Program-made: the position numbers and the translations under genes
In this document: positions 7,274 through 28,296 of the stretch, one piece after another
Numbering within the stretch: the stretch's first letter is position 1
How the letters are laid out: each line of letters starts with the position of its first letter
Notes under the pieces: generated by a model
The model's input: only the letters and a program-made list of their open reading frames with translations
Told to the model about the DNA's origin: nothing
Database searches by the model: none
NCBI GenBank assembly: GCA_963739305.1
Contig: CAVTZU010000022.1
Span: 1-41,614 of the forward strand
Direction: 5' to 3'
DNA: 41,614 nucleotides
DNA from: Candidatus Bathyarchaeota archaeon
GTDB lineage: Archaea; Thermoproteota; Bathyarchaeia; Bathyarchaeales; Bathycorpusculaceae

Positions 7274-7274
7274 A

Positions 7275-9480: not shown

Positions 9481-9556
9481 GAAAAAAAGGCCGGGGGGTA
9501 GGGTGTTTTAGACTGTTTTCAACTCAAAACCCATGTTGACCAGGCCCGCACAGACC
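9481..9556 (+). repeat. G-tract dispersed element, copy 1
   Basis: GAAAAAAAGGCCGGGGGGTAGGGTGTTTTAGA (32 nt identical to the reverse complement of copy 2) ...CTCAAAACCCATGTTGACCAG...CAGACC. Confidence 0.9.
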
Positions 9557-9644
9557 CATAATCCTGATTCCAAAATCATAAAACTTACCAAACCCCCCAT
9601 CATACACACTATCACTCACCACACCACAACACGAGTGAAAACGA

Positions 9645-10034
9645 TTGTCCTTCGAAGACTGGCAGTACAGACAAGCCGAAAAAAACGCCCACAACGAAAT
9701 CCTAGCCTTCCTCGTCATCATCATGGGCATTAACCTCCTAGCAACCGGCCTGATAATCACGATCATGACAACCGGCCAACCCGTCCTCTTCCCCTACCCA
9801 CTCCCACAATTCATCAACCTGCCAATTGCCCTAGGATTCATACTCACCGACTCAGGCTTCGCCATAATCTTCGCAGGATTCGCCCTAAGCATACACTACG
9901 ACAAACAAAGATCATGGCACCTCACCGAAATCGACAAATCATCCAAACGCAAAAACTGGAAAGTAAACGTAAGAGCCACCGACGAAATCCTCGAAGAACT
10001 AAAAGAAGAAAAGAAAAAACCTAGCAGATCCTAA
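9645..10034 (+). CDS. Hypothetical membrane protein (2 TM)
   Basis: TTG start, two hydrophobic helices, charged C-terminus. Confidence 0.75.
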   Translation: MSFEDWQYRQAEKNAHNEILAFLVIIMGINLLATGLIITIMTTGQPVLFPYPLPQFINLPIALGFILTDSGFAIIFAGFALSIHYDKQRSWHLTEIDKSSKRKNWKVNVRATDEILEELKEEKKKPSRS

Positions 10035-10067
10035 ACAGCGTCCCCGTGGAAGCCAACCTCAACGAGC

Positions 10068-10268
10068 CTAATCGCTCCACTTCTCGATGAACAGCTTCTT
10101 CTCACCCTGCTTAAACATGACCCTCACAGGAATCGCATCCGTCCCCCTCTTCGTCTTCTTATACTCCTTGAACGGAAACATGCTGTCCTCAGCCAAATCC
10201 ACCGGGATATAAAGCAGATACTTCCCGTCTTTTCGCTTGAACAATCGACCTCTTCCCTCGCTAACCAT
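10068..10268 (-). CDS. Small conserved-type protein, possibly AbrB-like swapped-hairpin
   Basis: GAGGTGA RBS and ATTAAATA TATA upstream; GRLFKRKDGKYLLYIPVDLAEDSMFPF pattern. Confidence 0.7.
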   Translation of the reverse strand: MVSEGRGRLFKRKDGKYLLYIPVDLAEDSMFPFKEYKKTKRGTDAIPVRVMFKQGEKKLFIEKWSD

Positions 10269-10489
10269 TCGTTATCACCTCGATTACATCCTCAGTTTAA
10301 GACCTAAGCAGTACAAGCAGAATCTATTTAATCCTTGTCATCACACAAACCAAAAGCATAAAACAGACAGACACGCCACAAGAAAAAAACGCATCAAATG
10401 AAACAACAAAAGACAAAGCCGTTAGAATTAGAGACCAACCAAAAAAACACGGACAAACCTCAACACAGGCTTCTCCCTACAAGCGCCCG

Positions 10490-10681
10490 TCACTCATACC
10501 TGGTCAGATACAACGGCTTCCCAGCCTCCCTCTTCTTCAACTCCACAGAAGAATCACGCAACAACACCGCATCCGCATCCAACTCAGCACATCGAACAGC
10601 CGCACCGTTCGAACCGCCAGACCCTGACTCCTTAACCAAACGAGCTTTCTTCACCGAAACACACTCCAACACCAAACTCAA
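10490..10681 (-). CDS. Possible small hypothetical protein (63 aa)
   Basis: GAAAACGCTTATTTAG BRE/TATA-like sequence about 20 nt upstream of TTG (leaderless geometry). Confidence 0.4.
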   Translation of the reverse strand: MSLVLECVSVKKARLVKESGSGGSNGAAVRCAELDADAVLLRDSSVELKKREAGKPLYLTRYE

Positions 10682-11149
10682 CTAAAAGACAAACACAAGG
10701 CTAAATAAGCGTTTTCAAACAAGTGTACAACCCAAAAACACTCAGCCCCCTCCCTCTCCGAACCACAACGACTCTTCTCCCACTCACGACGAAACCGAAA
10801 CCCCGTTTCCCTCACTCTCATCTCCCACAAAAACGCACACATCATCAGCGTTCGGACACTCCAACGCAGGATGGAACAAACACCTCCGACTCTTACGCTT
10901 ACGCTCTCGCCCCATAACGATAATCACCCCGTAATGCTTCTTTCCCACAACGCACCGTCCGAACCGTAATATTCCAAAGCCTGCTCTACTGCTCCTCTAG
11001 AGCACACCGCATAAAAGAACCTTGCCTCCAACATTCCCAAACGGAACACACCAGATTCACAGCGGCCAAAGCAAGGCAATTTCCAATAGCGAAAGCTTTT
11101 ATTGCAGCACAAAACAAAGTTTGCCAATACCTCAAAAAGATGATGTGAA

Positions 11150-11899
11150 ATGAGTCTGCAGAAAGGTGACTTCATACTAATAGAGTACACAGCAAAAGTC
11201 AAAGAAACAGGAGAAGTCTTCGACACAACAACCGAAGAAACCGCAAAAAAAGAGCACCTGTACAAAGAAGGCAACATCTACGAACCCAAGCTCGTCGTCA
11301 TCGGAGAAAACTGGGTCCTGAAACCTCTCGACGAAAGCCTAACAACAATGGAAGTAGCCAAGCCCACAACCGTCGAGATTCCGCCGGAAAAAGCATTCGG
11401 GCAACGAGATCCAGAAAAAGTGAAACGCGTTCCCCTCAAACAGCTTCTGGCCAGAGAAATCACCCCGAGCGTGGGACAAAGAATCGAATACGGAGACAAA
11501 AGCGCCACAATCCGAGCCGTCGGCGCCGGACGAGTCCTGCTAGACTTCAACCCTCCACTTGCAGGAAAAACCCTAGTCTACGAGGTCAACGTCAAACAAA
11601 AGCTTGAAACAGCTGAAGAAAAAGTTGCCTCACTAATCCACAGAAGAATACCCAACGTCGACGACAAGAAATTCGAGTTCACCGTGAAACCAAAAACAGT
11701 CAGCGTTGAAATGCCCGAAGACGCCTTCTACATAGAAGGAGTACAAATCGCAAAAAGAGGAATAGCAATGGACATTCAAAGATTCTTCCCAGAAACAACC
11801 ACAGTACGATTCACAGAAGCCTTCAAAGCCGAACCCAAGAAAACAGAAGAACAACCCGAAAAGAAAGAAACAACCGCTGAGGCACAACCAGCAACCTAG
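11150..11899 (+). CDS. slyD: Long-type FKBP peptidyl-prolyl cis-trans isomerase
   Basis: KGDFILIEYT, FDTT, IPPEKAFG, LDFNPPLAGKTL, archaeal C-terminal extension. Confidence 0.93.
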   Translation: MSLQKGDFILIEYTAKVKETGEVFDTTTEETAKKEHLYKEGNIYEPKLVVIGENWVLKPLDESLTTMEVAKPTTVEIPPEKAFGQRDPEKVKRVPLKQLLAREITPSVGQRIEYGDKSATIRAVGAGRVLLDFNPPLAGKTLVYEVNVKQKLETAEEKVASLIHRRIPNVDDKKFEFTVKPKTVSVEMPEDAFYIEGVQIAKRGIAMDIQRFFPETTTVRFTEAFKAEPKKTEEQPEKKETTAEAQPAT

Positions 11900-11901
11900 A
11901 C

Positions 11902-12966
11902 TCACACGACCTCAGTGACTTTTGCAAGGTGCTCATAAGCTTCACGATTCAGACTCAGCTTGTTCAAGATCGTAAACCTCTCAGGCCTCAACGAAGCAGC
12001 CAACACCAACGCTTCGACAACGTCACGTTTATCTAAACCAAGATCCCGCGCCGTAGTCGGAGCCCCAAGCCTTCTAAAAACGTCTCTAATCCGCTTCCAG
12101 TTAGCCCCATGCAAATAAGCCATCATTATCGTCCCCACACCACACCTTTCACCGTGCAAAGCACAATTCGGCTTTATGGTTTCAAGCGCATGGCTAAACA
12201 TGTGCTCAGACCCGCTGCAGGGACGACTGCTCCCCGCAATGCTCATCGACACGCCGCAACTTATCAAAGCCTCAATCAAGACTCGCAGCCCCTCTTGGTT
12301 CTTCTTCCGCATCAGGTTCGCGTTCAACAAAACGTGCTTGGCGCTCATCAAAGCCAAACTCGAAGCATACCCACCATAATACTCATCTCTCTCGTCACGC
12401 GCCAACTGCCAATCCTTCACAGCCGTGAACTTGGCAATCACGTCCGCATAACCGCTCACAGCAAGCCGCCAAGGAGCGCGAATAATGACCCGTGTGTCCG
12501 CAATAATCGCCAGAGGAGCCTGAGCCATCACTGAGTACGGCTTTTCATAACCCTTGATCGAAGACAGAGGGCTGGCTATCCCATCATGAGAAGCCGTCGT
12601 CGGCACGCTAATGAAGGGAATGTTAGAACGCGCCGAACTGCACTTCGCCACATCTATCTTCGTACCCCCGCCCACACCGAAAACAATCTCCGGTTCCAAC
12701 ACTCTTATTCGCTCTTCAACCAATTGAACATCTTTCACTGTCGCAGTCTCAACGAGAAACGTGTCAACCTTCATTCTTTCCGTCTCAAGCATCCTTCGTA
12801 CTTTCCGTCCGGCAATAACGTTCGTCCTGGAACCAGCAATAACAAGCGCTGACTGAGCAAAACCCAGTCTTCTGCAGATCTCTCCAACTCTCTCCAGTAC
12901 ACCATCCCCAACGATAACTTCCCGAGGCAACTGCATCCTATGATGTTTTAAGTTCAAATAAACCAC
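11902..12966 (-). CDS. egsA: NAD(P)-dependent sn-glycerol-1-phosphate dehydrogenase
   Basis: GVGGGTKIDVAK, PTTASHDGIAS, SRPCSGSEHMFSHALE, HGERCG. Confidence 0.96.
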   Translation of the reverse strand: MVYLNLKHHRMQLPREVIVGDGVLERVGEICRRLGFAQSALVIAGSRTNVIAGRKVRRMLETERMKVDTFLVETATVKDVQLVEERIRVLEPEIVFGVGGGTKIDVAKCSSARSNIPFISVPTTASHDGIASPLSSIKGYEKPYSVMAQAPLAIIADTRVIIRAPWRLAVSGYADVIAKFTAVKDWQLARDERDEYYGGYASSLALMSAKHVLLNANLMRKKNQEGLRVLIEALISCGVSMSIAGSSRPCSGSEHMFSHALETIKPNCALHGERCGVGTIMMAYLHGANWKRIRDVFRRLGAPTTARDLGLDKRDVVEALVLAASLRPERFTILNKLSLNREAYEHLAKVTEVV

Positions 12967-13078
12967 GTTTGATCGGCATCTTCGTTTTCTTAGCGGTGTC
13001 CTAGAACCTTAAAAAGTATTGCCCTTCATGAAGAACGCTAAAACAGCCGCAATCCTGAAATTCTCATCAATGGACACG

Positions 13079-13576
13079 TCAATTATCTGCTTTTTCAAGG
13101 TACCTAAACGAGAAGGGCTTGACAACCAACTCTGGACGGTTTAGGCTAAGAATAAAGCTCTGAACATCTTTCAAGTTAGGCTGCCAATCCTTCCTCATAG
13201 TGGTAATCAATCTTGAGAAGCTAGCGTAGTTCTTGTGCACGGAGACGATTATGCTGTTCATCCCTAACCCTTCACCATCAGATGCAAAAACAATATCCGC
13301 CTGCGCCTTTGCCCATTCGCGAGCCTTCTCAAGCAGTTCAGGCTTGGCTTCAGTGAAAGCAAGAAAAGTGAACGCAACAATCTCGTAACCCATCTTCGTG
13401 AGGTTAGGGATTATCGTGTACTCCTTCACGTACCCAGCCAATTCCAGATGAGTTCTCTTCCTCGTCACCGTCGGCTGCGAGACTCTCAAAACTTTAGCAA
13501 GCTCTCTGTCGCTTCTCCTTGATCCCCTTATCAATTCGCGCAAAAGATCCAACTTTTCTTTTTCTTTCTCACTCAT
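13079..13576 (-). CDS. Lrp/AsnC-family HTH transcriptional regulator
   Basis: RRSDRELAKVLRVSQPTVTRKR...GYVKEYTIIPNLTKMGY; start at MSEKEK. Confidence 0.88.
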   Translation of the reverse strand: MSEKEKEKLDLLRELIRGSRRSDRELAKVLRVSQPTVTRKRTHLELAGYVKEYTIIPNLTKMGYEIVAFTFLAFTEAKPELLEKAREWAKAQADIVFASDGEGLGMNSIIVSVHKNYASFSRLITTMRKDWQPNLKDVQSFILSLNRPELVVKPFSFRYLEKADN

Positions 13577-13819
13577 GAATAACGCCCGTATTATACACAA
13601 TTCAATTGATTTAATAATATTTGTGATTGAACACACTTCACCAGTTCTTCAAGACGACTCGTCAGAAACCACAGGAAGATAATCGTTGATTCGAGATGCA
13701 TTGATTTTTTCACAAAACTTCTGAGCGCAATATTAATAAATCTCTTGTAGATGATAGAATGATGCTACTTCCTAGTGAAGTAATTCTCTGACGCAATTGA
13801 GTTTTGGAGAAAAAACAGA

Positions 13820-14458
13820 ATGACCAACAACGATGTGATAAATCAATTAACATTGAAAGGAACAACGACCATAGGTCTTGTCTGCAAAGACGGAGTCATA
13901 CTGGCTTCTGACACCCGCGTCACGATGGGCTATTACGTAGCTCATAAACAAGGAAAAAAGGTCTATCAGATAGACGATCATTTAGCAATGACTATAGCCG
14001 GAAGCGTTGCTGACGCCCAGAAAGCCGTTGACATACTCATTACCAACGCAAAACTCTACAAGATCGAGCTTGGAAGGCCTCTGCCCGTGAGTTCGGCAGC
14101 GCGTTTGCTGGCCAACCTACTTTTTTCGGCAAGGTACGTTCCCTTGTTGGCACAAGTGCTCGTCGGAGGCGTCGATGGCACAGGTCCACATATATTCTCC
14201 ATAGATCCCTTCGGATCCCTCACTGAAGAAAAATTCGTCTCCACAGGCTCCGGCTCACCAATAGCATACGGCATATTGGAGGACAAGTTCAAGGAAGGCT
14301 CCCACATAAAGGAAATGTTGCCCGTAATAGTCAAGGCGGTAAATGCTGCCATGAAGCGCGACTCAGCCAGTGGAGACAGTTACAACGTCGCGGTCATAGA
14401 CGCAAAAGGCTACAGAGACATAGGGGAAAAGGAGAAGAAACAGCTCCTGGCAGACTGA
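13820..14458 (+). CDS. psmB: Proteasome beta subunit
   Basis: Propeptide ending KG|TTT; ASDTRVT; GSGSPIAYG; RDSASGD. Confidence 0.96.
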   Translation: MTNNDVINQLTLKGTTTIGLVCKDGVILASDTRVTMGYYVAHKQGKKVYQIDDHLAMTIAGSVADAQKAVDILITNAKLYKIELGRPLPVSSAARLLANLLFSARYVPLLAQVLVGGVDGTGPHIFSIDPFGSLTEEKFVSTGSGSPIAYGILEDKFKEGSHIKEMLPVIVKAVNAAMKRDSASGDSYNVAVIDAKGYRDIGEKEKKQLLAD

Positions 14459-14471
14459 GGATGTAAGAAGG

Positions 14472-16391
14472 GTGCACGGAAATTCTGACAAGGACAAGGT
14501 CGAAATCAGCCAGTACATTCTAGAGCATGTGCCCAAAGAGGCTGAGGTCACAAGGATCGAGTACGAGGGCTCAACGCTGGCCGTCTACACCAAAAAGCCA
14601 GAAATCTTGGTGGATCAAAGCAGCGTCGTCGCCAACATAGTCAACGTCATAAGGAAACGAATAGTCATCCGTTCCGACCCTTCGGTAAGGCTCCAAGAAG
14701 TGGAAGCTGAAAAGATTTCAAGAGACATCATACCCGCAGAAGCAGAGGTAACTGACATAAACTTCGACCCAAGCTTGGGCGAAATCATCATAGACGCTAA
14801 GAAGCCTGGCCTCGTCATTGGCAAGAACGGTACAGTTCTTCAAGAGATAATCAAGCGCACCAAATGGCGCCCACACGTCCTCAGAAGCCCACCTTTGAAG
14901 TCAAAAATAATCACTCACATGCGGCATTATCTTCATTCAGAAAGCAAAGAGAGAGAAAGAGTCCTGCGAACCATAGGAGAAAGAATCTTCAGACCAAAAG
15001 CCTTTGAAGTTGGCGACGTCAGGATCACGGCGCTCGGAGCCGCCCAAGAAGTCGGCAGATCCGCGTTCCTCCTCCAAACCCGTGAAAGCAACGTACTCCT
15101 GGACTGCGGAGTCAACCCAGGTTCATCCAGACCGTTTGAAGCATTCCCGAGACTTGACAACCCCGGCTTCGAACTCGAATCCCTAGACGCCGTGGTGATA
15201 AGCCACGCCCACCTTGATCACTGCGGTCTGGTTCCCTTCTTGTACAAATACGGCTACGACGGCCCAGTGTACTGCTCCGCTCCCACATCAAACATGATGA
15301 CGCTTCTCCAACTGGACTATCTGGACGTAGCAGGAAAGCAGGGTACAACCCCATTCTACGACCAAAAAGACGTTAGAGAATGCGTCTTGCACACTCTTCC
15401 CCTAAGATACGGAGTCGTGACGGACATTGCCCCAGACGTTAGGCTAACTCTGCACAACGCTGGCCACATACTCGGTTCTGCAATGGTTCACCTCCACGTA
15501 GGCGAAGGCCTCCACAACGTCGTCTACACCGGAGACTACAAATTCTCCAGAACGATGCTCCTTGAAGCCGCAGCCACAGAGTTCCCCAGAGTAGAAACCG
15601 TCATAACCGAGAGCACTTACGGCGGACCAGATGACATCATGCCCTCTCGAGTTGAAGCCGAGGAACGGTTGACAAGAATCGTAAACGAAACCCTGGAACG
15701 CAAAGGAAAAGTCTTGATACCCGTGCCGGCGGTCGGCAGAGCACAGGAAATAATGCTCATACTGGACGGTTACATGAAAAGAGGAATGATGAAAGAGGCT
15801 CCAGTGTTCATCGAAGGAATGATCTCAGAGGCAACCGCAATTCACACAGCATACCCTGAATACCTTGGAAGAGAAGTCAGAAACAGCATACTTCACGACG
15901 GAGTCAACCCCTTCCAATCCGACTACTTCACGATCGTGGAACATCCCAGCGTGCGACAGGAAATAATCGAAGGAGAACCATGCATCATAATGGCCACCTC
16001 AGGAATGCTTGAAGGCGGACCAGTCATCGAGTACTTCAAAAGTTTGGCGGACAACGAGAATAACACAATTGTTTTCGTCAGCTACCAAATCGAAGGCACG
16101 ATGGGCAGGAGAGTTCAGAAAGGTTTGAATGAAGTCACCGTTATGACTTCCGAAGGAAAAATGGACGTTGTGAGAGCCCGACTGCGTGTTGAATCAATAG
16201 AAGGCTTCTCTGGGCACTCTGACAGGCGGCAGATTTTCAACTACATCATGCATTTGAGACCGAAACCGGAGAGAGTGGTCGTGTGCCACGGCGAAAGAGC
16301 GAAGTGTCTCAGCATGGCCAATTTCATAGAAAGAAGATGTGAAATCAGATCATTCGCGCCAGCCTTGATGGAGACGTTCAGGCTGCTGTAG
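14472..16391 (+). CDS. fttA: aCPSF1/FttA beta-CASP ribonuclease with KH domains
   Basis: KH KPGLVIGKNG; MBL SHAHLDH; AGHILGSA; GFSGHSD; conserved adjacency to psmB. Confidence 0.96.
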   Translation: MHGNSDKDKVEISQYILEHVPKEAEVTRIEYEGSTLAVYTKKPEILVDQSSVVANIVNVIRKRIVIRSDPSVRLQEVEAEKISRDIIPAEAEVTDINFDPSLGEIIIDAKKPGLVIGKNGTVLQEIIKRTKWRPHVLRSPPLKSKIITHMRHYLHSESKERERVLRTIGERIFRPKAFEVGDVRITALGAAQEVGRSAFLLQTRESNVLLDCGVNPGSSRPFEAFPRLDNPGFELESLDAVVISHAHLDHCGLVPFLYKYGYDGPVYCSAPTSNMMTLLQLDYLDVAGKQGTTPFYDQKDVRECVLHTLPLRYGVVTDIAPDVRLTLHNAGHILGSAMVHLHVGEGLHNVVYTGDYKFSRTMLLEAAATEFPRVETVITESTYGGPDDIMPSRVEAEERLTRIVNETLERKGKVLIPVPAVGRAQEIMLILDGYMKRGMMKEAPVFIEGMISEATAIHTAYPEYLGREVRNSILHDGVNPFQSDYFTIVEHPSVRQEIIEGEPCIIMATSGMLEGGPVIEYFKSLADNENNTIVFVSYQIEGTMGRRVQKGLNEVTVMTSEGKMDVVRARLRVESIEGFSGHSDRRQIFNYIMHLRPKPERVVVCHGERAKCLSMANFIERRCEIRSFAPALMETFRLL

Positions 16392-16767
16392 GAATAGGCT
16401 CGTTCGAAACAGCTACTTTCTCTCGCCAGATTTTAACGCTTTGAGGACAAACAACTACCCGTTCTTCTCCCAGTCTCGCGATGTCCCCTCCAACGGCTTC
16501 GGCGAACTCGCACAACTCGTTGACAGCACGTTTGACATCTTCGATGCTCTTGTTTGCAAGAGGTGTTATTCTAAGAATCAGGATATTCCCTTCTTTAACT
16601 TCTGCCTTAATAGATTCCAAGTCTGAAAGGTCACGGAGAGGCATCGCTTTCAAATAGGTCTTGCCAGAACTACTTTTTGGCTCGGCTTCCTTCTGTTCCT
16701 TTTTTGATTTGCGCAGTATCCCAAGTCCTGGCAAACGTCTCTTCCCTTTCCCTCTCTTATTCTTCAT
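16378..16767 (-). CDS. sepF: Cell division protein SepF
   Basis: EVKEGNILIL...VKRAVNEL...GGDIARLGEERVVVCP. Confidence 0.85.
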   Translation of the reverse strand: MKNKRGKGKRRLPGLGILRKSKKEQKEAEPKSSSGKTYLKAMPLRDLSDLESIKAEVKEGNILILRITPLANKSIEDVKRAVNELCEFAEAVGGDIARLGEERVVVCPQSVKIWREKVAVSNEPIPTAA

Positions 16768-17680: not shown

Positions 17681-17685
17681 CATCC

Positions 17686-21363: not shown

Positions 21364-21399
21364 GTCGAGGGTCACAAGTTTTGATTGCAAGGTTTTGAA

Positions 21400-22299: not shown

Positions 22300-22349
22300 A
22301 GCGGACTTGGCGTGCGGATCGGTTCTTCAAGAAGAAAACGGGAGCAGGT

Positions 22350-22631
22350 TTATTCTTCTTCCTGCACTTCCCTGCCTTTGATAACTAAAGAGCTTTCTTT
22401 GCCACCGATTACTCTGAAATATTCTTCCAGTTCTTTCTTGTGAAGGAACTTTCGAAGCAGAACGCGCAGATAGGTCCGTGACACTTTAACGTCATCAGTT
22501 TTGATCACTACGTCGTCTGTTCCTGTTTCAACTTTGGCGCCTGTTTTCTCTTTCAAGTAGGTCGCCAGATCTTTTACGACTTCGCTTCCTTCACTTTTCA
22601 GTTCCGAAATGTTTATTCTCGCTTCTTCCAT
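22350..22631 (-). CDS. rpl22e: Ribosomal protein eL22 (L22e)-like
   Basis: LATYLKEK...SRTYLRVLLRKFLHKKELEEYFRVI resembles the eL22 SKRYLKYLTKKYLKK..LRDWLRVV motif; acidic tail. Confidence 0.75.
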   Translation of the reverse strand: MEEARINISELKSEGSEVVKDLATYLKEKTGAKVETGTDDVVIKTDDVKVSRTYLRVLLRKFLHKKELEEYFRVIGGKESSLVIKGREVQEEE

Positions 22632-22640
22632 CTTCTCACC

Positions 22641-23300: not shown

Positions 23301-24396
23301 CTGCTAATTCCTCCTTCAAACCCATCTCGGGATATGAGAACACGTGTGCCTTCTCTACGGAAAAACGAACGGAGACTCTCTCTCCGATTCGGACCCATTT
23401 TCCAGCCATCGAAGGTTTGACTACCACGATTCGGTCTTGATTTTCGAGCACGATCTCGTATCTTATGCTTGTCCCTTCGAAGGTAACTCTTTCCACCACG
23501 CCTGGAATAGAATTCTTGGCCTTGCTCGGCTTTTCTTCCAGAATGAAAGCTTCGGGCCTCACGGCAAGAACCACTTTTTCACCTTTTTTTGCAAAGTTGT
23601 TAATGGCTTGGACTCTTATTCCTCCTCGAAGCTCTATTAATGTTTCTTTATCATCTCTCTCCAGGATGTATCCCTCGAGGAAGTTTGACTCTCCGATGAA
23701 GTTGGCCACAAAAATGTTCTGAGGAGACATGTAGAGCTCACTTGGGTTTCCGACTTGTTTGATTTTGCCTTTCTTCATTACTGCTATCCTGTCGGAAATT
23801 GCCATGGCTTCGGATTGGTCATGCGTTACGTGTATGGCTGTCAATCCTAGGTCCTTCGTCATTCTTCTTATTTCGTATCTCAAGTCATTCCTGACCTTTG
23901 CGTCCAACTGTCCAAGCGGTTCGTCCAGGAGCAACAGTCGAGCCCCTGCTGCTAATGCTCTTGCAACGGCTATTCTCTGCATCATGCCGCCGCTCAGCTC
24001 GTTTGGAAAAGCATCAAGTCTTTCGTGAAGTCGAACCATCTCGAGAACTTCGTGTCCTATCGTGCCCGCTTTTTTCATGTCGAAACCCTTGACTCGGGGA
24101 CCGTAGATTACGTTGTTCCAAACGTCCATGTGTGGAAAAAGCGCGAAAGTTTGGAAGACGAATCCGATGTCTCGGTCTTCGGGGGGTACATCGTTTACTA
24201 GTTTGTCTCCGATGAAGATTCTTCCTTTATCTGGTTGAATCAGTCCTGCGATAAGTCTGAGCAAAGTTGTTTTGCCGCAGCCACTTGGGCCGAGGAGGGC
24301 GAAATACTCTTTGTCACAGATGTGGAGGCTCACGTCATCTACGGCGACGAGTTTGCCGAACCTCTTCGTGACTTTTTCTATTCGTACGTCAGGCAC
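23293..24396 (-). CDS. ABC importer ATP-binding subunit (PotA/FbpC type, TOBE domain)
   Basis: GPSGCGKTT, LSGGMMQR, LLLDEP, HVTHDQSEA. Confidence 0.93.
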   Translation of the reverse strand: MPDVRIEKVTKRFGKLVAVDDVSLHICDKEYFALLGPSGCGKTTLLRLIAGLIQPDKGRIFIGDKLVNDVPPEDRDIGFVFQTFALFPHMDVWNNVIYGPRVKGFDMKKAGTIGHEVLEMVRLHERLDAFPNELSGGMMQRIAVARALAAGARLLLLDEPLGQLDAKVRNDLRYEIRRMTKDLGLTAIHVTHDQSEAMAISDRIAVMKKGKIKQVGNPSELYMSPQNIFVANFIGESNFLEGYILERDDKETLIELRGGIRVQAINNFAKKGEKVVLAVRPEAFILEEKPSKAKNSIPGVVERVTFEGTSIRYEIVLENQDRIVVVKPSMAGKWVRIGERVSVRFSVEKAHVFSYPEMGLKEELAVE

Positions 24397-24468
24397 AGTT
24401 CAGCCTTCCTCCATCGCCGTTTGAATTTTCGAAAGTATTGATAGGGCGAACGTAGTTTATTAATCATG

Positions 24469-26127
24469 TTAGTATCTTCCTCTTCCCTTGACCACCAATC
24501 TTAACGCCAACAGTATCAAGAAGGAAAACAGTATTAGATAGCCGCTTCCCAAACCTGCCTCCAAAGGATGCGCAGTGACCCAATTAACGAGGACGACTGG
24601 CGCTGTCTTGAGCGTTGTGACAACAGCTACGGTCGCTCCTGTCTCGCTTACGCTTCTCGTGAACATCATTATTGCTCCCGAAAGTATAGAGTACTTTGTC
24701 AAAGGGAGAACTATTGTTCTGAAGACGGCAAGAGGTCTTGCTCCGAGAGTTCGCGATGCTTCTTCGAGGTCGAGACCGATTCTTTCGACCGCAGCGGACA
24801 TTGATCTGACAAAGTATGGATAGGTTATTGCGACGTGAGCAAAGATCAGGAGCAGTATTTCTGGAATGAAGGTGAAATTGGTTTTCCAGAAGATCCCCAG
24901 TGAAATGCCTAGAGCAATCGATGGGACTACAAGAGGTATATTGACAAGCACGTCTAAGATTGTAGAAACGAACCCGCCGAACTTCTTTCTCGCAATGAGG
25001 ATTGCCATTGGCAAGCCTATAATGATGTTGATGACTGTGACGATTCCGCCGAGGAGATATGACAACACGAGACTCTGCCAATATTGCCCCCAGATTCCTG
25101 ATCCTGCTAAAGATTGTGAGAAAGTTCCTGTGAATACAGCTTGAAAGGCTGGGAGCGCCACGAATAGGGACGGAACGAGGATGATTGCAAAGAAAATGAT
25201 CAATGTTGCAGTGTCCCTTGAAGCCGCCGCTTTCGAATAGCTGATGCGTCGTTCGAGCATCGGCCAAACTCTCTTCATGGGTAGTCTTAGCCGTGGTCCA
25301 ACTATGCGTATAACGAAGAAAATCGCGACCGCGACGACGATGAGAATGAAGCTTGCAAACACGGTCGAGCCTTCGTAGAGAGTTTGACTTACGGTTCCGG
25401 CTGCGTAAGCTTTATTCATGTTCTGTATGAAGACGGGTCCGTTTTCGAAGAATCCCGCAACTATGAACGTGGCTCCCGTTTCGGATATTGATCTTGCGAA
25501 CGCAAGAATGAAGCTGGCGATCAGGGAGGGTTTTATGATGGACAAAGTCACTGTTCTGGATGCGGTGAATGGAGGTGCCCCTAGAGTTCGTGACGCGTTT
25601 TCGTATTCTCTCTTGTAATCCAGCAGGGCACCTACGACTACTCTGACGACAACGGGAAAAGAGAAAGCGAAGTGCAAGAGTATGACAAGCAGCCATCCTG
25701 GAGAAATCAGGGTTCCTCCAAACAGCGCGGATATGCCTTGGGGTTTGTTCCAGAAAAGCAACAATGAGTAGCCGAGAACTGCTGTTGGCACGATGAATGG
25801 AATGTCAGACAGGGTGTCTAGGACGTTGATCCAAGTGGATTTCTTGCGGGCGATGAGCCATGCCATTGGTACGCCGACGACAAGATCGATGGCTGAAACG
25901 AGGAGTGCTATGGTGAAAGAGTTCTGGACGGCTGTGAGTGCTCGGGAGACGTAGCTTGGCTGGTTTAGGAATTGTTGCATTGTGTTCCATTGTGTTGCTA
26001 TTCCAAGCAGGGGCGGAAGGATTATGAATGCGAGGAATACGATTACGGCGATCAAGTAGACCGAGTATTTGATGCTTTTCCGTGAAGAAAGTCTGTAAAG
26101 TGCTGAGACAAACTTGGATTCCGGCAA
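24469..26127 (-). CDS. ABC importer permease with two fused BPD_transp_1 domains (FbpB/ThiP type)
   Basis: Two EAA-like loops (ENASRTLGA, EEASRTLGA); two SETGAT motifs. Confidence 0.9.
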   Translation of the reverse strand: MPESKFVSALYRLSSRKSIKYSVYLIAVIVFLAFIILPPLLGIATQWNTMQQFLNQPSYVSRALTAVQNSFTIALLVSAIDLVVGVPMAWLIARKKSTWINVLDTLSDIPFIVPTAVLGYSLLLFWNKPQGISALFGGTLISPGWLLVILLHFAFSFPVVVRVVVGALLDYKREYENASRTLGAPPFTASRTVTLSIIKPSLIASFILAFARSISETGATFIVAGFFENGPVFIQNMNKAYAAGTVSQTLYEGSTVFASFILIVVAVAIFFVIRIVGPRLRLPMKRVWPMLERRISYSKAAASRDTATLIIFFAIILVPSLFVALPAFQAVFTGTFSQSLAGSGIWGQYWQSLVLSYLLGGIVTVINIIIGLPMAILIARKKFGGFVSTILDVLVNIPLVVPSIALGISLGIFWKTNFTFIPEILLLIFAHVAITYPYFVRSMSAAVERIGLDLEEASRTLGARPLAVFRTIVLPLTKYSILSGAIMMFTRSVSETGATVAVVTTLKTAPVVLVNWVTAHPLEAGLGSGYLILFSFLILLALRLVVKGRGRY

Positions 26128-26234
26128 AGCAACTCCTTTCTTAGGTCCCTCTCGCTACGTTTGCGGTCTTTGTAGCTGAACGTAGCTTTCCTTTTTTCAC
26201 TTGTGGTTTCGGTTCATAAGTTTTCCGCATTGGA

Positions 26235-26304
26235 ATCTGTCAGTTCGCCCGTCGAGTCATGTCATCGCTCACGCTCTATTGACTCTCTGTGTCATCATCC
26301 AGAC
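26235..26304 (-). ncRNA. Box C/D methylation-guide sRNA
   Basis: Minus strand: TCTG-g-ATGATGA (C) cacagagagtcaa TAGA (D') gc-gtga-gc GATGA (C') catgactcgacgggcgaa CTGA (D) CAGA terminal stem; CAAAAGCCTTAAG BRE/TATA about 25 nt upstream. Confidence 0.82.
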
Positions 26305-26432
26305 TGGACTGAGGGTCAGAGTGGACTTAAGGCTTTTGCGCCTTGAGGCTTTTGAAATAGAAAACCTGCGAGTTGCTTCGGTGTGAAGTCTTAATATCTT
26401 GTTTTCTTCAATTTACTCGTGGGGTTTGGCTG

Positions 26433-28214
26433 TTGAAGTACAGTGTCATTGCTGAAGCTTATGAGAAGATTGAAGCCACGACGAAGCGGTTGGAGATGAC
26501 TGATTTGCTGGTTGATCTGCTCAGGAACACTCCGAAGGACGTGATTGAAAAGGTTGCTTATTTGACGCAGGGTAAGTTGTACCCTGATTTTTTGGGTGTG
26601 GAGATTGGTGTGGCTGAGAAGCTTGCTTTGAAGGCTCTAGCCAGAGCGACGGGCAGCGGTCAGACGGTGCTGGAGGAGGATTTGAGGAAGAGTGGTGACA
26701 TCGGTGAGACGGGTCAGAAGTTTATTTCTAAGAAGAGGCAGGTTACGTTTTTCCAGGAAGTTCTGACTGTTGAGAAGGTGTATGAGACGCTTGACAAGGT
26801 TGCGAAGACTTCGGGGTCGGGTGCCGTTGATGCAAAGATGGCGTTGTTGTCGGGTTTGTTGGCGGCTGCGTCTCCGTTGGAAGCAAAGTATGTTTTGCGG
26901 ACGGTGACTGGGAATTTACGGCTGGGCATTGCGGACATGACTGTGTTGGACGCGTTGGCTTTGGCTTATGGCGGTGGCAAGGACGCGCGGGGATTCATTG
27001 AGAGGGCGTATAATATCTGTTGTGATCTTGGGAGGGTTGCGAGGGTTCTTGTTGAGGAGGGTCTTGATGGAATACGGCGGTTTGAGGTTTCGGTTGGTGA
27101 ACCTATTAGGCCAATGTTGGCTGAGCGGCTTTCTTCTCCTGAGGAGATTCTTGAGAAGCTTGGGGGTCGGTGTGTTGCTGAGTACAAGTACGATGGGGAG
27201 CGTCTTCAGGCTCACAAGCGTGGCGATGAGGTCACGTTGTTTAGTCGGCGCGTGGAGAATATTTCTGGTCAGTATCCTGATGCCGTGAAGCTGTTTCGAG
27301 ATTGTGTTGAGGCGAAGGAGGCTATTCTTGAGTGTGAGTGCGTGGCTGTCGATGTGGATACGGGTGAGATGCGTCCTTTTCAGGAGCTTATGCATCGGAG
27401 ACGGAAGCACGGGGTTGCGGAGGCTGTCGTGGATTATCCGGTTTCGTTGTTTGTGTTTGATGCGCTTTTCGTTGACGGGAAGGATTTGACTCTGGAGCCA
27501 TTTCCGGTTAGGAGACAGTGTCTTGAGAAGACGATAGAAGTGGGTGATCGTGTTAGGCTGGCGAAGAGTATTACGACGAGGGATGCTGGCGAGTTGGAGA
27601 AGTTTTTTTTGGAGGCGATTGAGGACGGGTGTGAGGGGTTGGTCTGTAAGTCGGTTGGGGAGGATTCGGTTTATCAGGCTGGGGCGAGGGGGTGGTTGTG
27701 GATTAAGTATAAGCGTGATTACAAGAGTGAGATGAAGGATACCGTTGATTTGGTTGTTGTGGGTGCTTTTCATGGGCGCGGCAAGCGCGCGGGGACTTAT
27801 GGTGCTTTGCTGTTAGCCGCGTACAATGCTGAGAGTGACACGTTTGAGACGGTTACGAAGTGTGGGACGGGCTTTACGGATGAGGATTTGGCGAAGTTGC
27901 CGAAGATGTTGGCGAAGCATGAGCTTAAGAAAAGGCCTTCGAGGGTTGACTCGGTTTTGGAGGCTGACGTGTGGTTTGAGCCTGCGGTTGTTCTTGAGGT
28001 TTTGGGAGCTGAGGTCACTTTGAGCCCGATTCACACGTGTGCTTTGGGTTCCGTGCGGAAGGGCAGTGGGTTGGCTATTCGTTTTCCAAGGTTTACGGGG
28101 AATTATCGGGTTGATAGGGCGCCGGAGGATGCGACGACTTCAGCTGAGATTCTGGAGATGTATCGGGGTCAGTTGAAGAAGATGAGTGAGGTTAAACCTG
28201 AAAGTGCTTCGTGA
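26433..28214 (+). CDS. lig: ATP-dependent DNA ligase
   Basis: EYKYDGER, EGLVCK, WIKYKRDY, IRFPRF; TTG start inferred. Confidence 0.97.
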   Translation: MKYSVIAEAYEKIEATTKRLEMTDLLVDLLRNTPKDVIEKVAYLTQGKLYPDFLGVEIGVAEKLALKALARATGSGQTVLEEDLRKSGDIGETGQKFISKKRQVTFFQEVLTVEKVYETLDKVAKTSGSGAVDAKMALLSGLLAAASPLEAKYVLRTVTGNLRLGIADMTVLDALALAYGGGKDARGFIERAYNICCDLGRVARVLVEEGLDGIRRFEVSVGEPIRPMLAERLSSPEEILEKLGGRCVAEYKYDGERLQAHKRGDEVTLFSRRVENISGQYPDAVKLFRDCVEAKEAILECECVAVDVDTGEMRPFQELMHRRRKHGVAEAVVDYPVSLFVFDALFVDGKDLTLEPFPVRRQCLEKTIEVGDRVRLAKSITTRDAGELEKFFLEAIEDGCEGLVCKSVGEDSVYQAGARGWLWIKYKRDYKSEMKDTVDLVVVGAFHGRGKRAGTYGALLLAAYNAESDTFETVTKCGTGFTDEDLAKLPKMLAKHELKKRPSRVDSVLEADVWFEPAVVLEVLGAEVTLSPIHTCALGSVRKGSGLAIRFPRFTGNYRVDRAPEDATTSAEILEMYRGQLKKMSEVKPESAS

Positions 28215-28218
28215 GTGA

Positions 28219-28296
28219 GGTCTGGGCTAGGGACTGGTCAACATGGTTTTTGAGTGTTTTCAGCTCTAAAACACCCTACCCCCCGGCCTTTTTTTC
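28219..28296 (-). repeat. G-tract dispersed element, copy 2 (inverted)
   Basis: Reverse complement GAAAAAAAGGCCGGGGGGTAGGGTGTTTTAGAGCTGAAAACACTCAAAAACCATGTTGACCAGTCCCTAGCCCAGACC. Confidence 0.9.

What the first reader, a model, noticed from the sequence alone, without database searches (positions are those of the whole stretch)
9481..28296. Inverted G-tract elements sit at the centres of opposite, transcription-independent A+C/G+T strand-skew domains
Seen: around copy 1 (G-tract on +) the + strand is extremely A+C-rich on both sides (9421-9480: 52/60 A+C; 9601-9630: 26/30). Around copy 2 (G-tract on -) the + strand is G+T-rich on both sides (27601-27660: 48/60; 28321-28380: 43/60). By eye the skew fades over several kb and flips around 17-20 kb. 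It ignores gene direction: + strand slyD uses ACA/CTA/AAA codons while + strand lig uses GTT/GGT/TTG/GAG, and minus-strand egsA is G+T-rich on its coding strand. Established: prolonged ssDNA exposure gives C>T and A>G, i.e. G+T enrichment, as on the mitochondrial H-strand. Inference: the element is an oriented site (strand-displacement priming, helicase loading, R-loop or fork barrier) that repeatedly exposes the strand carrying CCCTACCCCCC. This would be an undescribed cis-acting system shaping local mutation in an archaeon.
Basis: partly seen in the sequence, partly recalled or inferred. Interest (0 to 1): 0.9.

Follow-up and report, generated by a model that had tools for sequence, protein, structure and literature searches.

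The report
Oriented repeat marks one-sided strand-skew domains
A short repeated DNA element in a peat-dwelling archaeon sits at the sharp edge of 2-5 kb stretches where one DNA strand has been rewritten by C-to-T and A-to-G changes whatever way the genes point, which suggests a new kind of site that steers mutation locally.

Summary
The 15-nt G-tract is the core of a 150-270 nt intergenic repeat with 27 strong copies in this Bathyarchaeia MAG. Variant copies occur in two congeners.

Taking the strand that reads CCCTACCCCCC...T7, the 1.5 kb on its 5' side is G+T-rich at all 19 copies outside my post-hoc zero-skew group. The mean is about +0.3, against 0 of 5000 random placements. The skew fades over 3-5 kb and stops within 0.5 kb past the element. 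So the element marks an edge, not a centre.

- The skew lies at third codon positions and in intergenic DNA.
- It is equally strong in co- and anti-oriented genes.
- It involves transitions only.

Orthologues in an element-free congener lack it in 29 of 30 genes. Polarised changes in the window are C>T and A>G on that strand, 83 against 10 in reverse.

Total substitutions per site barely rise; forward transitions roughly double and reverse ones fall about threefold. Eight copies that share flanks, a group defined post hoc, show no skew.

My best reading (about 0.35): the element seeds repeated one-strand removal and resynthesis. The C-tract strand is left as the exposed sole template. Fork arrest, R-loops and fixation bias remain open. 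No enzyme was identified. Four literature searches found no description of this.

The parts
9476..9551 (-). Element copy 1, conserved core. The strand called here the C-strand is the - strand. It reads 5' box TCAACATGG, a variable hairpin-like stretch, CTAAAACACCCTACCCCCCGGCC, then T7.
   Evidence: nhmmer E=4.9e-23; sequence; alignment
9400..9475 (-). Copy 1, module 3' of the T-run. It is A+C-rich on the + strand and ends in a degenerate inverted copy of the 5' box. The limits are approximate.
   Evidence: alignment of 27 copies; sequence
28225..28299 (+). Element copy 2, conserved core. The C-strand is the + strand. It starts 11 nt after the lig stop codon.
   Evidence: nhmmer E=9.2e-22; sequence
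28296..28381 (+). Copy 2, conserved G+T-rich module 3' of the T-run. It ends just before the stop of the convergent M55 peptidase gene.
   Evidence: nhmmer with the module model, E=4e-06; the module is found only beside elements, 24 of 24 hits
9552..16400 (.). Skew domain 1. The + strand is A+C-rich (the - strand, which is the C-strand, is G+T-rich). The skew is strongest next to the element and fades toward 16.4 kb. It contains genes on both strands.
   Evidence: orthologues in five congeners are unskewed (A2)
6100..9399 (.). Weaker skew of the same sign on the 3' side of copy 1, over cohesin/dockerin surface-protein genes. This region is not syntenic with G001.
25900..28224 (.). Skew domain 2. 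The + strand (the C-strand) is G+T-rich. It is essentially the lig gene, with a weaker shoulder back to about 22.6 kb.
28382..29240 (.). Short tail of same-sign skew 3' of copy 2, over the M55 peptidase gene. Position-3 keto is +0.33-0.34 on the + strand, against 0.00 in the G002 orthologue.
26373..28214 (+). ATP-dependent DNA ligase gene. It is co-oriented with copy 2. Position-3 keto is +0.71 and position-1 keto is +0.23.
   Evidence: Pfam
11150..11899 (+). It is anti-oriented to copy 1. Position-3 keto is -0.62.
   Evidence: Pfam FKBP_C, FKBP26_C
11902..12966 (-). egsA-like (Fe-ADH_2 family) gene. It is co-oriented with copy 1. Position-3 keto is +0.44 on its coding strand.
   Evidence: Pfam
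9645..10034 (+). Membrane-protein ORF with no Pfam family. Orthologues are present in G001, G002, G004 and G008. Position-3 keto is -0.78.

Best explanation
The repeat is an oriented cis-acting site that makes the few kb on one side of it evolve with a strand-asymmetric transition bias. That a copy marks and signs a domain is shown. That it causes the domain is inferred.

The mechanism I think most likely is as follows. A single-strand break or priming event occurs at the element on the G-tract strand. It is followed by 5'-to-3' removal and resynthesis of that strand over a variable 1-4 kb, running into the domain. During this the C-tract strand is the sole template and is transiently single-stranded. 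Deaminated bases on it (C to U, A to hypoxanthine) are copied and become fixed as C>T and A>G. Lesions and errors on the replaced G-tract strand are erased.

Repeated over evolutionary time, this enriches G+T on the C-tract strand. The enrichment is steepest at the element and fades with tract length. The edge is sharp because the process starts there. It is blind to gene direction.

All steps after 'the element marks and signs the domain' are inference. No nick, enzyme or single-stranded intermediate has been seen.
For: Association and sign:
- There are 27 strong copies.
- C-strand keto in -1500..0 is positive in 19 of 19 copies outside the zero-skew group. The mean is 0.27-0.31 per 500-nt bin.
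- The observed mean over all 27 is 0.212. Random placements give sd 0.018, and 0 of 5000 reach the observed value.
- 18 of 70 skew domains carry a copy, and all 18 are concordant in orientation.

Geometry:
- There is a plateau to the element. The first 100 nt past the core read 0.44, which is the element's own module.
- Beyond it the value falls to 0.16-0.07 within 500 nt and to about 0 after that.
- Upstream it decays gradually: 0.18 at -2 kb, 0.10 at -3 kb, 0.05 at -4.5 kb.

Independence from transcription of annotated genes:
- Within 2.5 kb upstream, 27 co-oriented genes average +0.31 and 19 anti-oriented genes average +0.54 on the C-strand.
- Nine of 10 anti-oriented genes checked outside the window have Pfam families in the called direction.
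- Intergenic DNA alone is positive at 16 of 16 loci, weighted mean 0.24.

Signature:
- 4-fold sites change from A.26 C.25 G.23 T.26 to A.07 C.11 G.43 T.40, with the purine share unchanged. This means transitions only.
- There is no dinucleotide context effect.

Lineage specificity:
- 29 of 30 upstream genes are more skewed than their G001 orthologues (0.52 against 0.04).
- lig is +0.71, against a maximum of +0.36 in 80 other Bathyarchaeia.
- G001 has no copy at E<=0.01 and about a third as many strong windows: 1.27% against 3.55% at |k|>=0.22.
- The same profile is found around 21 variant copies in G003 and G004.

Polarised changes in the window:
- 46 forward against 4 reverse transitions in domain 1.
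- 37 against 6 in lig.
- The control is near symmetric: 98 (G>A, T>C) against 68 (C>T, A>G).

Rate pattern:
- Going from far away to the last 1 kb, forward transitions per C/A site rise from 0.31 to 0.60.
- Reverse transitions per T/G site fall from 0.29 to 0.09.
- Transitions per site stay at 0.30-0.33 and transversions at 0.19-0.21.
- A fall in reverse changes is expected if the G-tract strand's own lesions are erased. It is not expected from added damage alone.

Break-proneness: many copies coincide with synteny breakpoints against G001, and the segment between the two window copies is inverted.
Against: - No nicking enzyme, Rep, relaxase, primase-polymerase, reverse transcriptase, IS200/IS605 transposase or MutS was found. 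Two of these searches had silent controls.
- Nothing marks the nick site.
- Eight copies with near-consensus cores have no skew at all. So the core sequence alone is not sufficient, or those copies are very recent.
- After allowing for changes on the G001 branch, my rough estimate of the forward rate is 3-4 fold. That needs extra single-strand damage on top of strand replacement.
- The same numbers fit a fixation bias with a scaled coefficient near 3.5.
- Resynthesis errors on the new strand should oppose the skew.
- The invariant T-run (6-7 T in 27 of 27 rows) looks like an archaeal transcription terminator. This points to RNA polymerase rather than a nickase.
- The skew continues weakly for up to 0.5 kb past the element, and for 3 kb past copy 1.
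Confidence: 0.35

Rival explanations
1. Polar replication-fork barrier (Ter-like). A protein bound to the element arrests forks that approach through the domain. Behind the arrested fork, the lagging-strand template is the C-tract strand. It stays single-stranded, or the nascent lagging strand is degraded and remade, and so it accumulates C>T and A>G.
For: - The sign equals the bacterial rule that the leading-strand sequence is G+T-rich (passage of PMC10030826 read), for forks moving toward the element.
- The edge at the element is sharp and the decay behind it is gradual.
- Six of 7 neighbouring copies closer than 25 kb are arranged so that the domains face each other. This is the geometry of a fork trap (my tally of the coordinates).
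- The conserved sequence blocks carry no fold better than shuffles, which suits a protein site.
- The process is independent of gene direction.
Against: - It does not by itself explain the fall in reverse transitions, because the parental G-tract strand is not replaced.
- Twenty-seven barriers, many in opposed pairs, would impede normal replication.
- No binding protein is known.
- Replication direction is unknown: G001's cumulative skews show no clean two-replichore pattern.
- The zero-skew copies would need the permissive orientation, yet they form a subfamily defined by sequence and flanks.
Confidence: 0.2
2. Terminator-anchored R-loops. RNA made in the C-strand sense ends at the T-run and stays hybridised upstream, displacing the C-tract strand. 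The growing G excess on that strand favours further R-loops, so the skew runs away.
For: - The T-run is invariant.
- In my reading, the nearest listed upstream gene is co-oriented at 10 of the 19 skewed copies (for lig the element starts 11 nt after the stop).
- In lig the skew is flat across the gene and steps down at its start.
- GC skew is known to favour R-loops (passage of PMC10030826; PMC3787257, listing and abstract start only).
- An RNA:DNA hybrid could shield the G-tract strand and so lower reverse changes.
- Positive feedback would explain the all-or-none split between copies.
Against: - At 9 skewed copies the adjacent upstream gene is anti-oriented, with equal or stronger skew.
- At C18_109644 all four genes over 4.4 kb are anti-oriented, and at C36_60079 and C9_9905 both listed upstream genes are. 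No annotated transcript there runs toward the element.
- Rfam and alifold give no RNA family or firm structure.
- No RNA run was available.
Confidence: 0.12
3. Fixation bias rather than mutation bias. Either selection favours a G+T-rich C-strand near the element, or strand-specific biased gene conversion is seeded at the element in a polyploid cell.
For: Substitutions are redistributed rather than added. Transitions per site stay at 0.30-0.33, while forward changes go up and reverse changes go down by similar factors. This is the textbook pattern of a directional fixation bias. My estimate of the scaled coefficient is about 3.5. Amino-acid identity to G001 is unchanged, at 72-75%.
Against: - Selection of that strength would be needed on thousands of synonymous and intergenic sites, with no known function.
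- The conversion rule needed is contrived: keep the C-strand base in G.T mismatches and the G-strand base in A.C mismatches.
- The genus lacks MutS (0 of 11).
Confidence: 0.1
4. Reverse causation. A mobile repeat inserts, in one orientation, into DNA that is already skewed or often single-stranded.
For: - The repeat looks mobile. It has 27 copies, species-specific variants, roughly 9-bp inverted termini, and collinear 'filled against empty' sites relative to G001 at several loci.
- Single-strand transposons are known to insert in an orientation that depends on the strand (recalled).
Against: - The orthologous loci in element-free congeners are not skewed: 29 of 30 genes, and the window genes.
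- The copies that look youngest sit in unskewed DNA.
- The polarised changes arose on the G000 branch.
- No Y1 transposase was found.
Confidence: 0.05
5. Strong transcription from a promoter in the element, running in the G-strand sense into the domain. In this lineage the transcription-linked asymmetry would be reversed, making the non-template strand A+C-rich.
For: - A TATA-like motif lies about 22 nt before a conserved ATG at the outer end of the flank-sharing copies.
- The coding strands of EF-1alpha (-0.47) and a thermosome gene (-0.42) are A+C-rich at position 3.
- A sharp start with gradual decay is what a promoter with leaky termination would give.
Against: - The sign is opposite to the known transcription-associated asymmetry, in which the non-template strand is G+T-rich (passage of PMC10030826).
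- The promoter-like motif is kept in the unskewed copies and decayed in the skewed ones.
- The skew does not begin at the unit's outer end in the window copies.
- Ribosomal-protein genes are near 0.
Confidence: 0.05
6. Artefact of assembly, binning or damage.
For: The genome is a MAG with 7.8% marker duplication. Contigs often end at repeats.
Against: - The frames stay open and Pfam families are intact.
- The skew respects codon position.
- Independent contigs of three runs reproduce it.
- The same pattern appears in two other assemblies.
Confidence: 0.02

Closest known systems
Vertebrate mitochondrial strand asymmetry (H-strand gradient between the two origins, D-loop with termination-associated sequence); recalled
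   Same: The signature is the same: C>T together with A>G on one strand, at synonymous sites, independent of gene direction. There is a gradient tied to a fixed cis site, and amino-acid composition is dragged along (lig position-1 keto is +0.23).
   Different: Here there are many local domains of 2-5 kb in a 2.3-Mb chromosome. Each is anchored by a repeat copy, not by the replication mode of a whole small genome. Total substitution is hardly raised.
Chi sites with RecBCD/AddAB; recalled
   Same: Both are short oriented chromosomal sequences present in many copies. Both give a one-sided, kb-scale effect on single-strand formation, and the strand with its 3' end at the site is the one exposed.
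   Different: Chi is an 8-mer that acts only on enzymes entering from a double-strand end, and it leaves no compositional domain. This element is at least 75 nt with a T-run, and no RecBCD-type enzyme is implied. Membership was not tested.
Tus-Ter, RTP-Ter and rDNA fork barriers that coincide with terminators (a reference to the latter was seen in the reference list of PMC10030826)
   Same: Both are oriented, protein-sized sequences. Opposed pairs are arranged so that the domains face each other. A terminator-like T-run sits within the element.
   Different: No local mutational skew has been described at Ter sites as far as my four searches reach. The number of copies here is far higher, and no binding protein is known.
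GC-skewed R-loop zones at the 3' ends of human genes (PMC3787257: listing and start of abstract only)
   Same: There is G excess on the non-template strand just upstream of a termination signal. A feedback between skew and R-loop formation is possible.
   Different: The skew here is equally strong where no annotated gene is transcribed toward the element. It includes a T-over-A skew as large as the G-over-C skew.
Prokaryotic MITEs and REP/BIME-type intergenic repeats (PMC3184786, PMC2229807: listings only)
   Same: Both are short, non-coding, multi-copy and intergenic, with short inverted termini and subfamilies. They often lie just after stop codons and are associated with rearrangements.
   Different: No such repeat is reported to imprint a kb-scale strand-specific substitution bias on its neighbourhood. 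No transposase was found, and target duplications were not examined.
Cis-targeted somatic hypermutation and diversity-generating retroelements; recalled
   Same: Mutation is aimed at a defined stretch next to a cis element.
   Different: Those systems need transcription plus AID, or a reverse transcriptase. No reverse transcriptase was found. There is no hotspot motif, and the total rate hardly rises.

Membership tests
Rfam RNA families / tRNA | Match to a curated covariance model or a tRNA fold | tested here: not met
   There were 0 matches at gathering score in the window. Only two chance-level snoRNA matches (E 3.1 and 5.6) lie near copy 2. There are 0 tRNAs.
Structured small RNA or single-strand DNA hairpin element | A fold more stable than shuffled sequence, and compensatory pair changes | tested here: inconclusive
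   DNA folds of both strands of both copies give z = -0.65, -1.07, +1.24 and +1.16. The alifold consensus energy is about -1 to -2 kcal. One pair has GC/UG/CG alternation in 22 of 26 sequences.
Small protein gene on the G-strand (93-nt frame ending in the TAG inside the G-tract) | Open frame with excess third-position change | tested here: not met
   The spacing is exactly 93 nt in 17 of 23 copies, 11 have ATG and 9 are intact. Pairwise differences by codon position are 126/120/141, so there is no coding periodicity.
MITE | Terminal inverted repeats | tested here: met
   The 5' box TCAACATGG is exact in 23 of 27 copies, by my reading. About 165 nt downstream, its inverted partner retains ATGTTG in about 20 of 27 copies by the same reading.
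MITE | Filled against empty sites and target-site duplication | tested here: inconclusive
   Flanks are collinear in G001 at about 7 copies, for example C18_31277, C28_26223 and C23_91708. The empty-site junctions and duplications were not read.
MITE / IS200-IS605-derived element | A cognate transposase in the genome | tested here: not met
   Y1_Tnp gave 0 matches and the TnpB zinc-ribbon domain gave 0 matches in G000. Other transposase families were not searched.
Archaeal oligo-T transcription terminator | A run of 5 or more T on the non-template strand at the 3' end of a gene | tested here: met
   There are 6-7 T in 27 of 27 rows of the alignment. In my reading, the nearest listed upstream gene is co-oriented at 10 of the 19 skewed copies (for lig the element starts 11 nt after the stop). 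Function as a terminator was not tested.
Polar fork barrier (Ter-like) | Orientation-dependent fork arrest by a bound protein | not testable with these tools
   Only indirect evidence is available: the oriented one-sided skew and the facing pairs (coordinates).
Chi-like recombination signal | Recognition by a resecting helicase-nuclease, and co-orientation with replication | not tested
   No test was possible, because the replication direction is unknown.
Retroelement-driven mutagenesis (DGR-like) | A reverse transcriptase gene | tested here: not met
   PF00078 gave 0 matches in G000, and the control genomes rang.
Nick-directed MutS/MutL mismatch repair | MutS present | tested here: not met
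   MutS_V was found in 0 of 11 genomes of the genus, and the controls rang. NucS is present in 9 of 11.
Loss of deaminated-base repair as the cause | Endonuclease V or UDG absent from the element-bearing genomes | tested here: not met
   Endonuclease V is present in 9 of 11 genomes and UDG in 10 of 11. Both are present in G000, G003 and G004.

The most novel reading that the evidence does not exclude
An archaeal lineage that lacks MutS/MutL carries a dispersed, oriented DNA signal. At this signal a dedicated, still unidentified nicking or loading factor starts one-strand replacement over several kb. In effect this is a built-in strand-discrimination or targeted strand-rewriting system. It operates at more than 20 chromosomal sites, rewrites synonymous sites, drags protein composition along and promotes inversions. 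The signal spreads like a MITE, and each new copy then converts its neighbourhood.
Probability: 0.3. Interest if true: 0.92.

Novelty: categorically new. Interest (0 to 1): 0.86.

Why it matters
Local mutation spectra are usually ascribed to replication direction, transcription or chromatin. Here a roughly 75-nt oriented sequence predicts, with its sign, a mitochondrion-strength strand bias over 2-5 kb of ordinary chromosomal genes. The bias is independent of gene direction and adds little mutational load.

If the element is causal, this would be the first dispersed cis-signal shown to steer the direction of substitution in a cellular chromosome. It would also give a handle on DNA strand transactions (nicking, resection, fork arrest or R-loops) in uncultured Bathyarchaeia, whose replication and repair are otherwise inaccessible.

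There are practical consequences too:
- Codon-usage, dN/dS, phylogenetic and horizontal-transfer inferences for genes next to such copies will be distorted. Examples are lig, EF-2, ThyX and Ogt.
- The element explains contig breaks and inversions in these MAGs.

Tried and rejected
RNA identity. Rfam at gathering score, Rfam at permissive E, ARAGORN, alifold and single-strand folds gave nothing solid.

Small ORF on the G-strand. Rejected because there is no codon periodicity.

Enzymes:
- No reverse transcriptase, Y1 transposase, TnpB, MutS or Prim-Pol was found.
- Rep_1 and Viral_Rep gave no hits, but their control genomes were silent too, so these two say nothing.
- Endonuclease V, UDG, NucS and CDA-fold deaminase are present alike in element-bearing and element-free congeners. 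Neither a repair loss nor a special deaminase is indicated.

Context dependence of the bias (APOBEC-like or CpG-like): none.

Second repeat family: a 45-nt palindrome plus a GGAGG motif, 7 copies, not linked to skew.

All-against-all intergenic BLAST. It found no other family at the edges of the remaining domains. Change-point listing of the domain edges showed no shared motif by eye.

Weak nhmmer hits. Ten of 16 are positive upstream and 5 are at or above 0.22. This is suggestive only.

The remaining roughly 50 domains:
- Only 22% of their coding bp lie on the G+T-rich strand.
- Two domains examined in G001, each with a counterpart edge sequence in G000, begin with tyrosine-integrase genes. 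One lies next to RNase P RNA and the other next to a tRNA-like fragment.
- I treat this as a separate phenomenon.

Expression. No RNA holder was listed by the look-up of sequencing runs.

Read laying. It returned only contigs and the 40 best-supported of 1401 differences. No position-resolved or polarised SNP spectrum could be made.

Replication direction. G001's cumulative GC and keto skews show no clean origin/terminus pattern, so element orientation could not be related to fork direction.

Remnants. Partial copies in G005 (C-tract but no T-run, opposite orientation) and in G008 (C-tract 140 nt after lig) carry no skew.

Literature. Four searches and passages of one review gave no description of element-anchored local strand skew.

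Caveats on my own groupings:
- The 'young' group of 8 copies was picked after seeing both their shared flanks and their low skew.
- Defined by shared flanks alone (alignments of 190 nt or more), the group has 9 copies. It then includes C23_19663, with skew 0.20, and still does not overlap the other 18, which range from 0.13 to 0.44.
- The tallies of synteny breaks and of facing pairs are my reading.
- Gene calls outside the window come from a crude caller of my own.

Full report
OBSERVATION. The window is a whole 41.6-kb contig of a 2.32-Mb, 36-contig genome. Its relatives are titled Candidatus Bathyarchaeia MAGs. Near-identical sequence is held by runs labelled peat and wetland metagenomes.

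The 15-nt motif is at the stated places, on opposite strands. The 1-kb keto skew is -0.35 at 10-11 kb and +0.34 at 27-28 kb. It is near 0 between 16 and 21 kb, and the genome-wide sd is 0.099.

The skew is carried by third codon positions and follows the DNA strand, not the gene:
- lig(+) +0.71
- the FKBP gene(+) -0.62
- ORF 9645(+) -0.78
- egsA-like(-) +0.44 on its own coding strand

Gene identities and directions were confirmed with Pfam.

THE ELEMENT. The motif is the core of a longer repeat. I call the strand that reads ...CCCTACCCCCC... the C-strand. Read on that strand, the unit has these parts:
- a 5' box, TCAACATGG
- about 25 variable nt that can form a weak hairpin
- CTAAAACACCCTACCCCCC followed by GGCC, GGTC or TACC
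- a run of 6-7 T, present in 27 of 27 aligned rows
- a G+T-rich module of about 110 nt, ending in an inverted copy of the 5' box

An nhmmer model finds 27 strong copies (E < 1e-10) and 16 weak hits. BLAST between the flanks puts the shared unit at 150-270 nt, and up to 380 nt in one subfamily. The 3' module occurs only beside the core (24 of 24).

It matches no Rfam family and is not a tRNA. It folds no better than shuffled sequence and has only a feeble consensus structure. A 93-nt frame on the other strand ends in the TAG of the G-tract, but it shows no coding periodicity.

Variant copies (...GACCTACCCCCTCCCCCCTAGG, then T4-6) occur in two congeners, with 22 matches in G004 and 8 in G003. 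G001, G005 and G007 give only partial matches (E about 1e-5). The repeat was not found in 30 genomes of other genera.

GENOME-WIDE ASSOCIATION AND GEOMETRY. Each copy was oriented by its C-strand. The mean keto skew of the 27 copies is +0.19 to +0.22 over the 1.5 kb on the 5' side. It decays to about 0.03 by -4 kb, is +0.15 in the first 500 nt on the 3' side and about 0.02 beyond. The upstream mean of 0.212 was reached by 0 of 5000 random placements, whose sd is 0.018.

Of 70 domains with |keto| >= 0.22 per kb, 18 have a copy within 1.5 kb. All 18 are in the concordant orientation.

At 100-nt resolution, the 19 copies outside the zero-skew group behave as follows:
- a plateau of 0.26-0.36 right up to the element
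- 0.44 in the element's own 3' module
- 0.16 to 0.07 over the next 400 nt
- 0 after that

So the element is the sharp 3' edge of the domain, not its centre. Copy 1 of the window is unusual in having a long weaker tail on the far side.

The same profile is seen around 21 variant copies in G003 and G004. There the value is 0.20-0.22 upstream, positive in 18-19 of 21, and 0.065 beyond +500.

INDEPENDENCE FROM GENES, AND THE SIGNATURE. I used a crude gene caller of my own (2345 genes, 83% coverage). Genes whose midpoints lie within 2.5 kb upstream are co-oriented in 27 cases and anti-oriented in 19. Their position-3 skew expressed on the C-strand is +0.31 and +0.54 respectively. Nine of 10 anti-oriented genes checked outside the window have Pfam families in the called direction. 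They include ThyX, M48 peptidase, ERCC4, ferredoxin, an HdrA-like protein and Ogt.

Intergenic DNA alone is skewed at 16 of 16 loci, with a weighted mean of 0.24.

At 4-fold sites the composition changes from A.26 C.25 G.23 T.26 to A.07 C.11 G.43 T.40 in genes whose coding strand is the G+T-rich one. It changes to the mirror image in the others. The purine share is unchanged, so the bias is made of transitions. Neighbouring bases have no effect.

COMPARATIVE EVIDENCE.
- lig has position-3 keto of +0.71 here. It is +0.55 and +0.47 in G003 and G004, 0.09-0.25 in the other congeners, and -0.51 to +0.07 in the full-length orthologues of other genera.
- Across 80 further Bathyarchaeia the median is -0.08 and the maximum +0.36.
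- Gene by gene, the domain-1 genes from 9645 to 16391 are -0.78 to -0.20 here. Their orthologues in five congeners range from -0.26 to +0.33.
- Genome-wide, 29 of 30 genes within 2.5 kb upstream of skewed copies are more skewed than their G001 orthologues, with means of 0.52 against 0.04.
- G001 has no copy at E <= 0.01. Its strong windows amount to 1.27% against 3.55% at |k| >= 0.22, and 0.28% against 1.04% at |k| >= 0.30.

Changes were polarised against three or four element-poor congeners:
- Domain 1 shows G>A 26 and T>C 20 on the + strand, against A>G 2 and C>T 2.
- lig shows C>T 22 and A>G 15, against T>C 5 and G>A 1.
- Control genes are near symmetric.

On the C-strand, therefore, the changes are C>T and A>G, and they arose on this lineage.

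RATES. I compared synonymous third positions with G001 in bins of distance from the 19 skewed copies. Going from more than 5 kb away to the last 1 kb:
- Forward transitions per C/A site rise: 0.31, 0.36, 0.50, 0.60.
- Reverse transitions per T/G site fall: 0.29, 0.24, 0.15, 0.09.
- Transitions per site stay at 0.30-0.33.
- Transversions per site stay at 0.19-0.21.
- Amino-acid identity stays at 71-75%.

Downstream, the values return to 0.35 and 0.25 within 1.5 kb. So the bias is largely a redistribution of direction, not a flood of extra mutations. As a rough inference, allowing for changes on the G001 branch, the forward rate is up 3-4 fold and the reverse rate is down about 5 fold.

TWO KINDS OF COPY, AND REARRANGEMENT. 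Eight copies have no skew on either side. They share longer flanks with each other and mostly keep the outer ATG and a TATA-like motif. I chose this group post hoc. Defined by shared flanks alone it has 9 members, one of them with skew 0.20.

By my reading of the synteny map against G001:
- The upstream (skewed) side is collinear in about 25 of 27 copies.
- The side beyond the T-run is unmapped or non-collinear in about 19 of 26.
- About 7 copies look like simple insertions.

The 18.7-kb segment between the two window copies is inverted relative to its right flank when compared with G001, G002 and G008. The breakpoints are at the two copies. Among neighbouring copies closer than 25 kb, 6 of 7 are arranged with their domains facing each other (coordinates).

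OTHER SKEW DOMAINS. The roughly 50 domains without a copy are different in kind. Only 22% of their coding bp lie on the G+T-rich strand, against 52% in element domains. Two domains examined in G001, each with a counterpart edge sequence in G000, begin with tyrosine-integrase genes. One lies next to RNase P RNA and the other next to a tRNA-like fragment, so they are integrated elements with A+C-rich coding strands. EF-1alpha and a thermosome gene are moderately A/C-ending, while ribosomal-protein genes are near 0. The two EF-2 genes give an internal control: -0.02 on C13 and +0.58 on C32 beside a copy.

MECHANISM (inference). The favoured strand has its 3' end at the element. The edge there is sharp and the decay is gradual. 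Gene direction is irrelevant. Reverse changes are suppressed. These constraints sort the candidate mechanisms as follows:
- A strand displaced from a nick at the element into the domain (rolling-circle, Hfr-like, or a D-loop with a nascent strand leaving the element) would be the G-tract strand. That gives the wrong sign unless the displaced strand is discarded.
- Ordinary transcription-associated deamination fails where all upstream genes are anti-oriented.
- Three geometries fit. The first is 5'-3' removal and refilling of the G-tract strand from a break at the element. The second is arrest at the element of forks coming through the domain, which exposes the lagging-strand template. The third is an R-loop made by an RNA that ends at the T-run.
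- Only the first, and perhaps the third, also explains the loss of reverse transitions. In those cases the G-tract strand is remade or shielded.
- A fixation bias also fits the numbers.

I therefore rank strand replacement from the element first (0.35). Next come a polar fork barrier (0.20), R-loops (0.12) and fixation bias (0.10). Insertion preference, reversed transcription asymmetry and artefact each get 0.05 or less.

No enzyme was identified. The repair genes for deaminated bases are present in all congeners alike.

COMPARISON AND NOVELTY. The signature is that of the vertebrate mitochondrial H-strand. The one-sided kb-scale effect of a short oriented site recalls Chi. The facing pairs recall Ter traps. 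The T-run with upstream G excess recalls R-loop terminators. The repeat itself looks like a MITE. None of these families is known to imprint a local, gene-independent substitution skew on a cellular chromosome.

Four full-text searches found no such report. Two recent papers on archaeal skews, seen only as listings and abstract starts, attribute archaeal skews to gene orientation or translational selection. That does not describe these domains.

LIMITS.
- Everything rests on MAGs.
- There is no RNA, nick or replication data.
- The genome-wide rate comparison is unpolarised, with G001 as the only comparator.
- Gene calls outside the window are crude.
- Several tallies are my reading of tables.

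Noticed in passing
window 9476-28299, compared with G001:C1 498-523 kb, G002:C8 38-69 kb and G008:C2 249-271 kb: The 18.7-kb segment between the two inverted element copies (ORF 9645 to lig) is inverted relative to the right-hand flank (M55 peptidase, HtrA-like protease, ABC genes). This holds in comparison with three congeners. The breakpoints coincide with the two copies.
   Followed up: partly
G000 contigs C7, C18, C22, C23, C28, C36 (coordinates): Six of 7 neighbouring element copies less than 25 kb apart are in the (-,+) arrangement, so their skew domains face each other. The spacings are 7.6-20.7 kb, and three of them are 9.3-9.5 kb. None are in the (+,-) arrangement.
   Followed up: partly
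G001 loci L200:16859-18073 and L186:490-7000; G000 C15 about 106 kb and C26 about 10.8 kb: Strong skew domains without the repeat start with tyrosine-integrase genes. One lies next to the RNase P RNA gene and one next to a tRNA-like 3' fragment that ARAGORN and Rfam do not call. They are probably integrated elements whose coding strand is very A+C-rich. They are present in both genomes. One of them contains a gene on the opposite strand with the same DNA-strand skew.
   Followed up: partly
G000 C13:50219-52417 and C32:71475-73697: There are two EF-2 genes in one genome. The one beside an element copy has position-3 keto of +0.58 and the other has -0.02.
   Followed up: no
window 6106-9304: The cohesin/dockerin-type surface-protein genes are split into several overlapping or abutting ORFs, which may reflect frameshifts or pseudogenes. 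They have no syntenic counterpart in G001.
   Followed up: no
G000, 7 sites (for example C33:9380-9424, C18:103070-103114, C11:141370-141414): A second conserved 45-nt intergenic repeat has a perfect palindrome followed by a GGAGG-containing stretch. It looks like a shared operator or leader. It is not linked to skew.
   Followed up: partly
window 14472-16391: The gene for the archaeal termination factor aCPSF1/FttA (KH_TffA, Beta-Casp, RMMBL domains) lies inside skew domain 1. Its position-3 keto is -0.36, against -0.08 to +0.01 in five congeners.
   Followed up: no
L104 (record titled as a bacterial MAG, lig at 63-1820): One lig orthologue out of 80 has a strong skew of the opposite sign (position 3 -0.67). 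This hints that similar domains with other anchors exist elsewhere in Bathyarchaeia. The record's title also suggests a binning error.
   Followed up: no
G005:C20:19500-19620 (L004 1490-1545) and G008, downstream of lig (L032): These are partial element remnants that keep the C-tract but lack the T-run and the 5' box. No skew lies next to them.
   Followed up: partly
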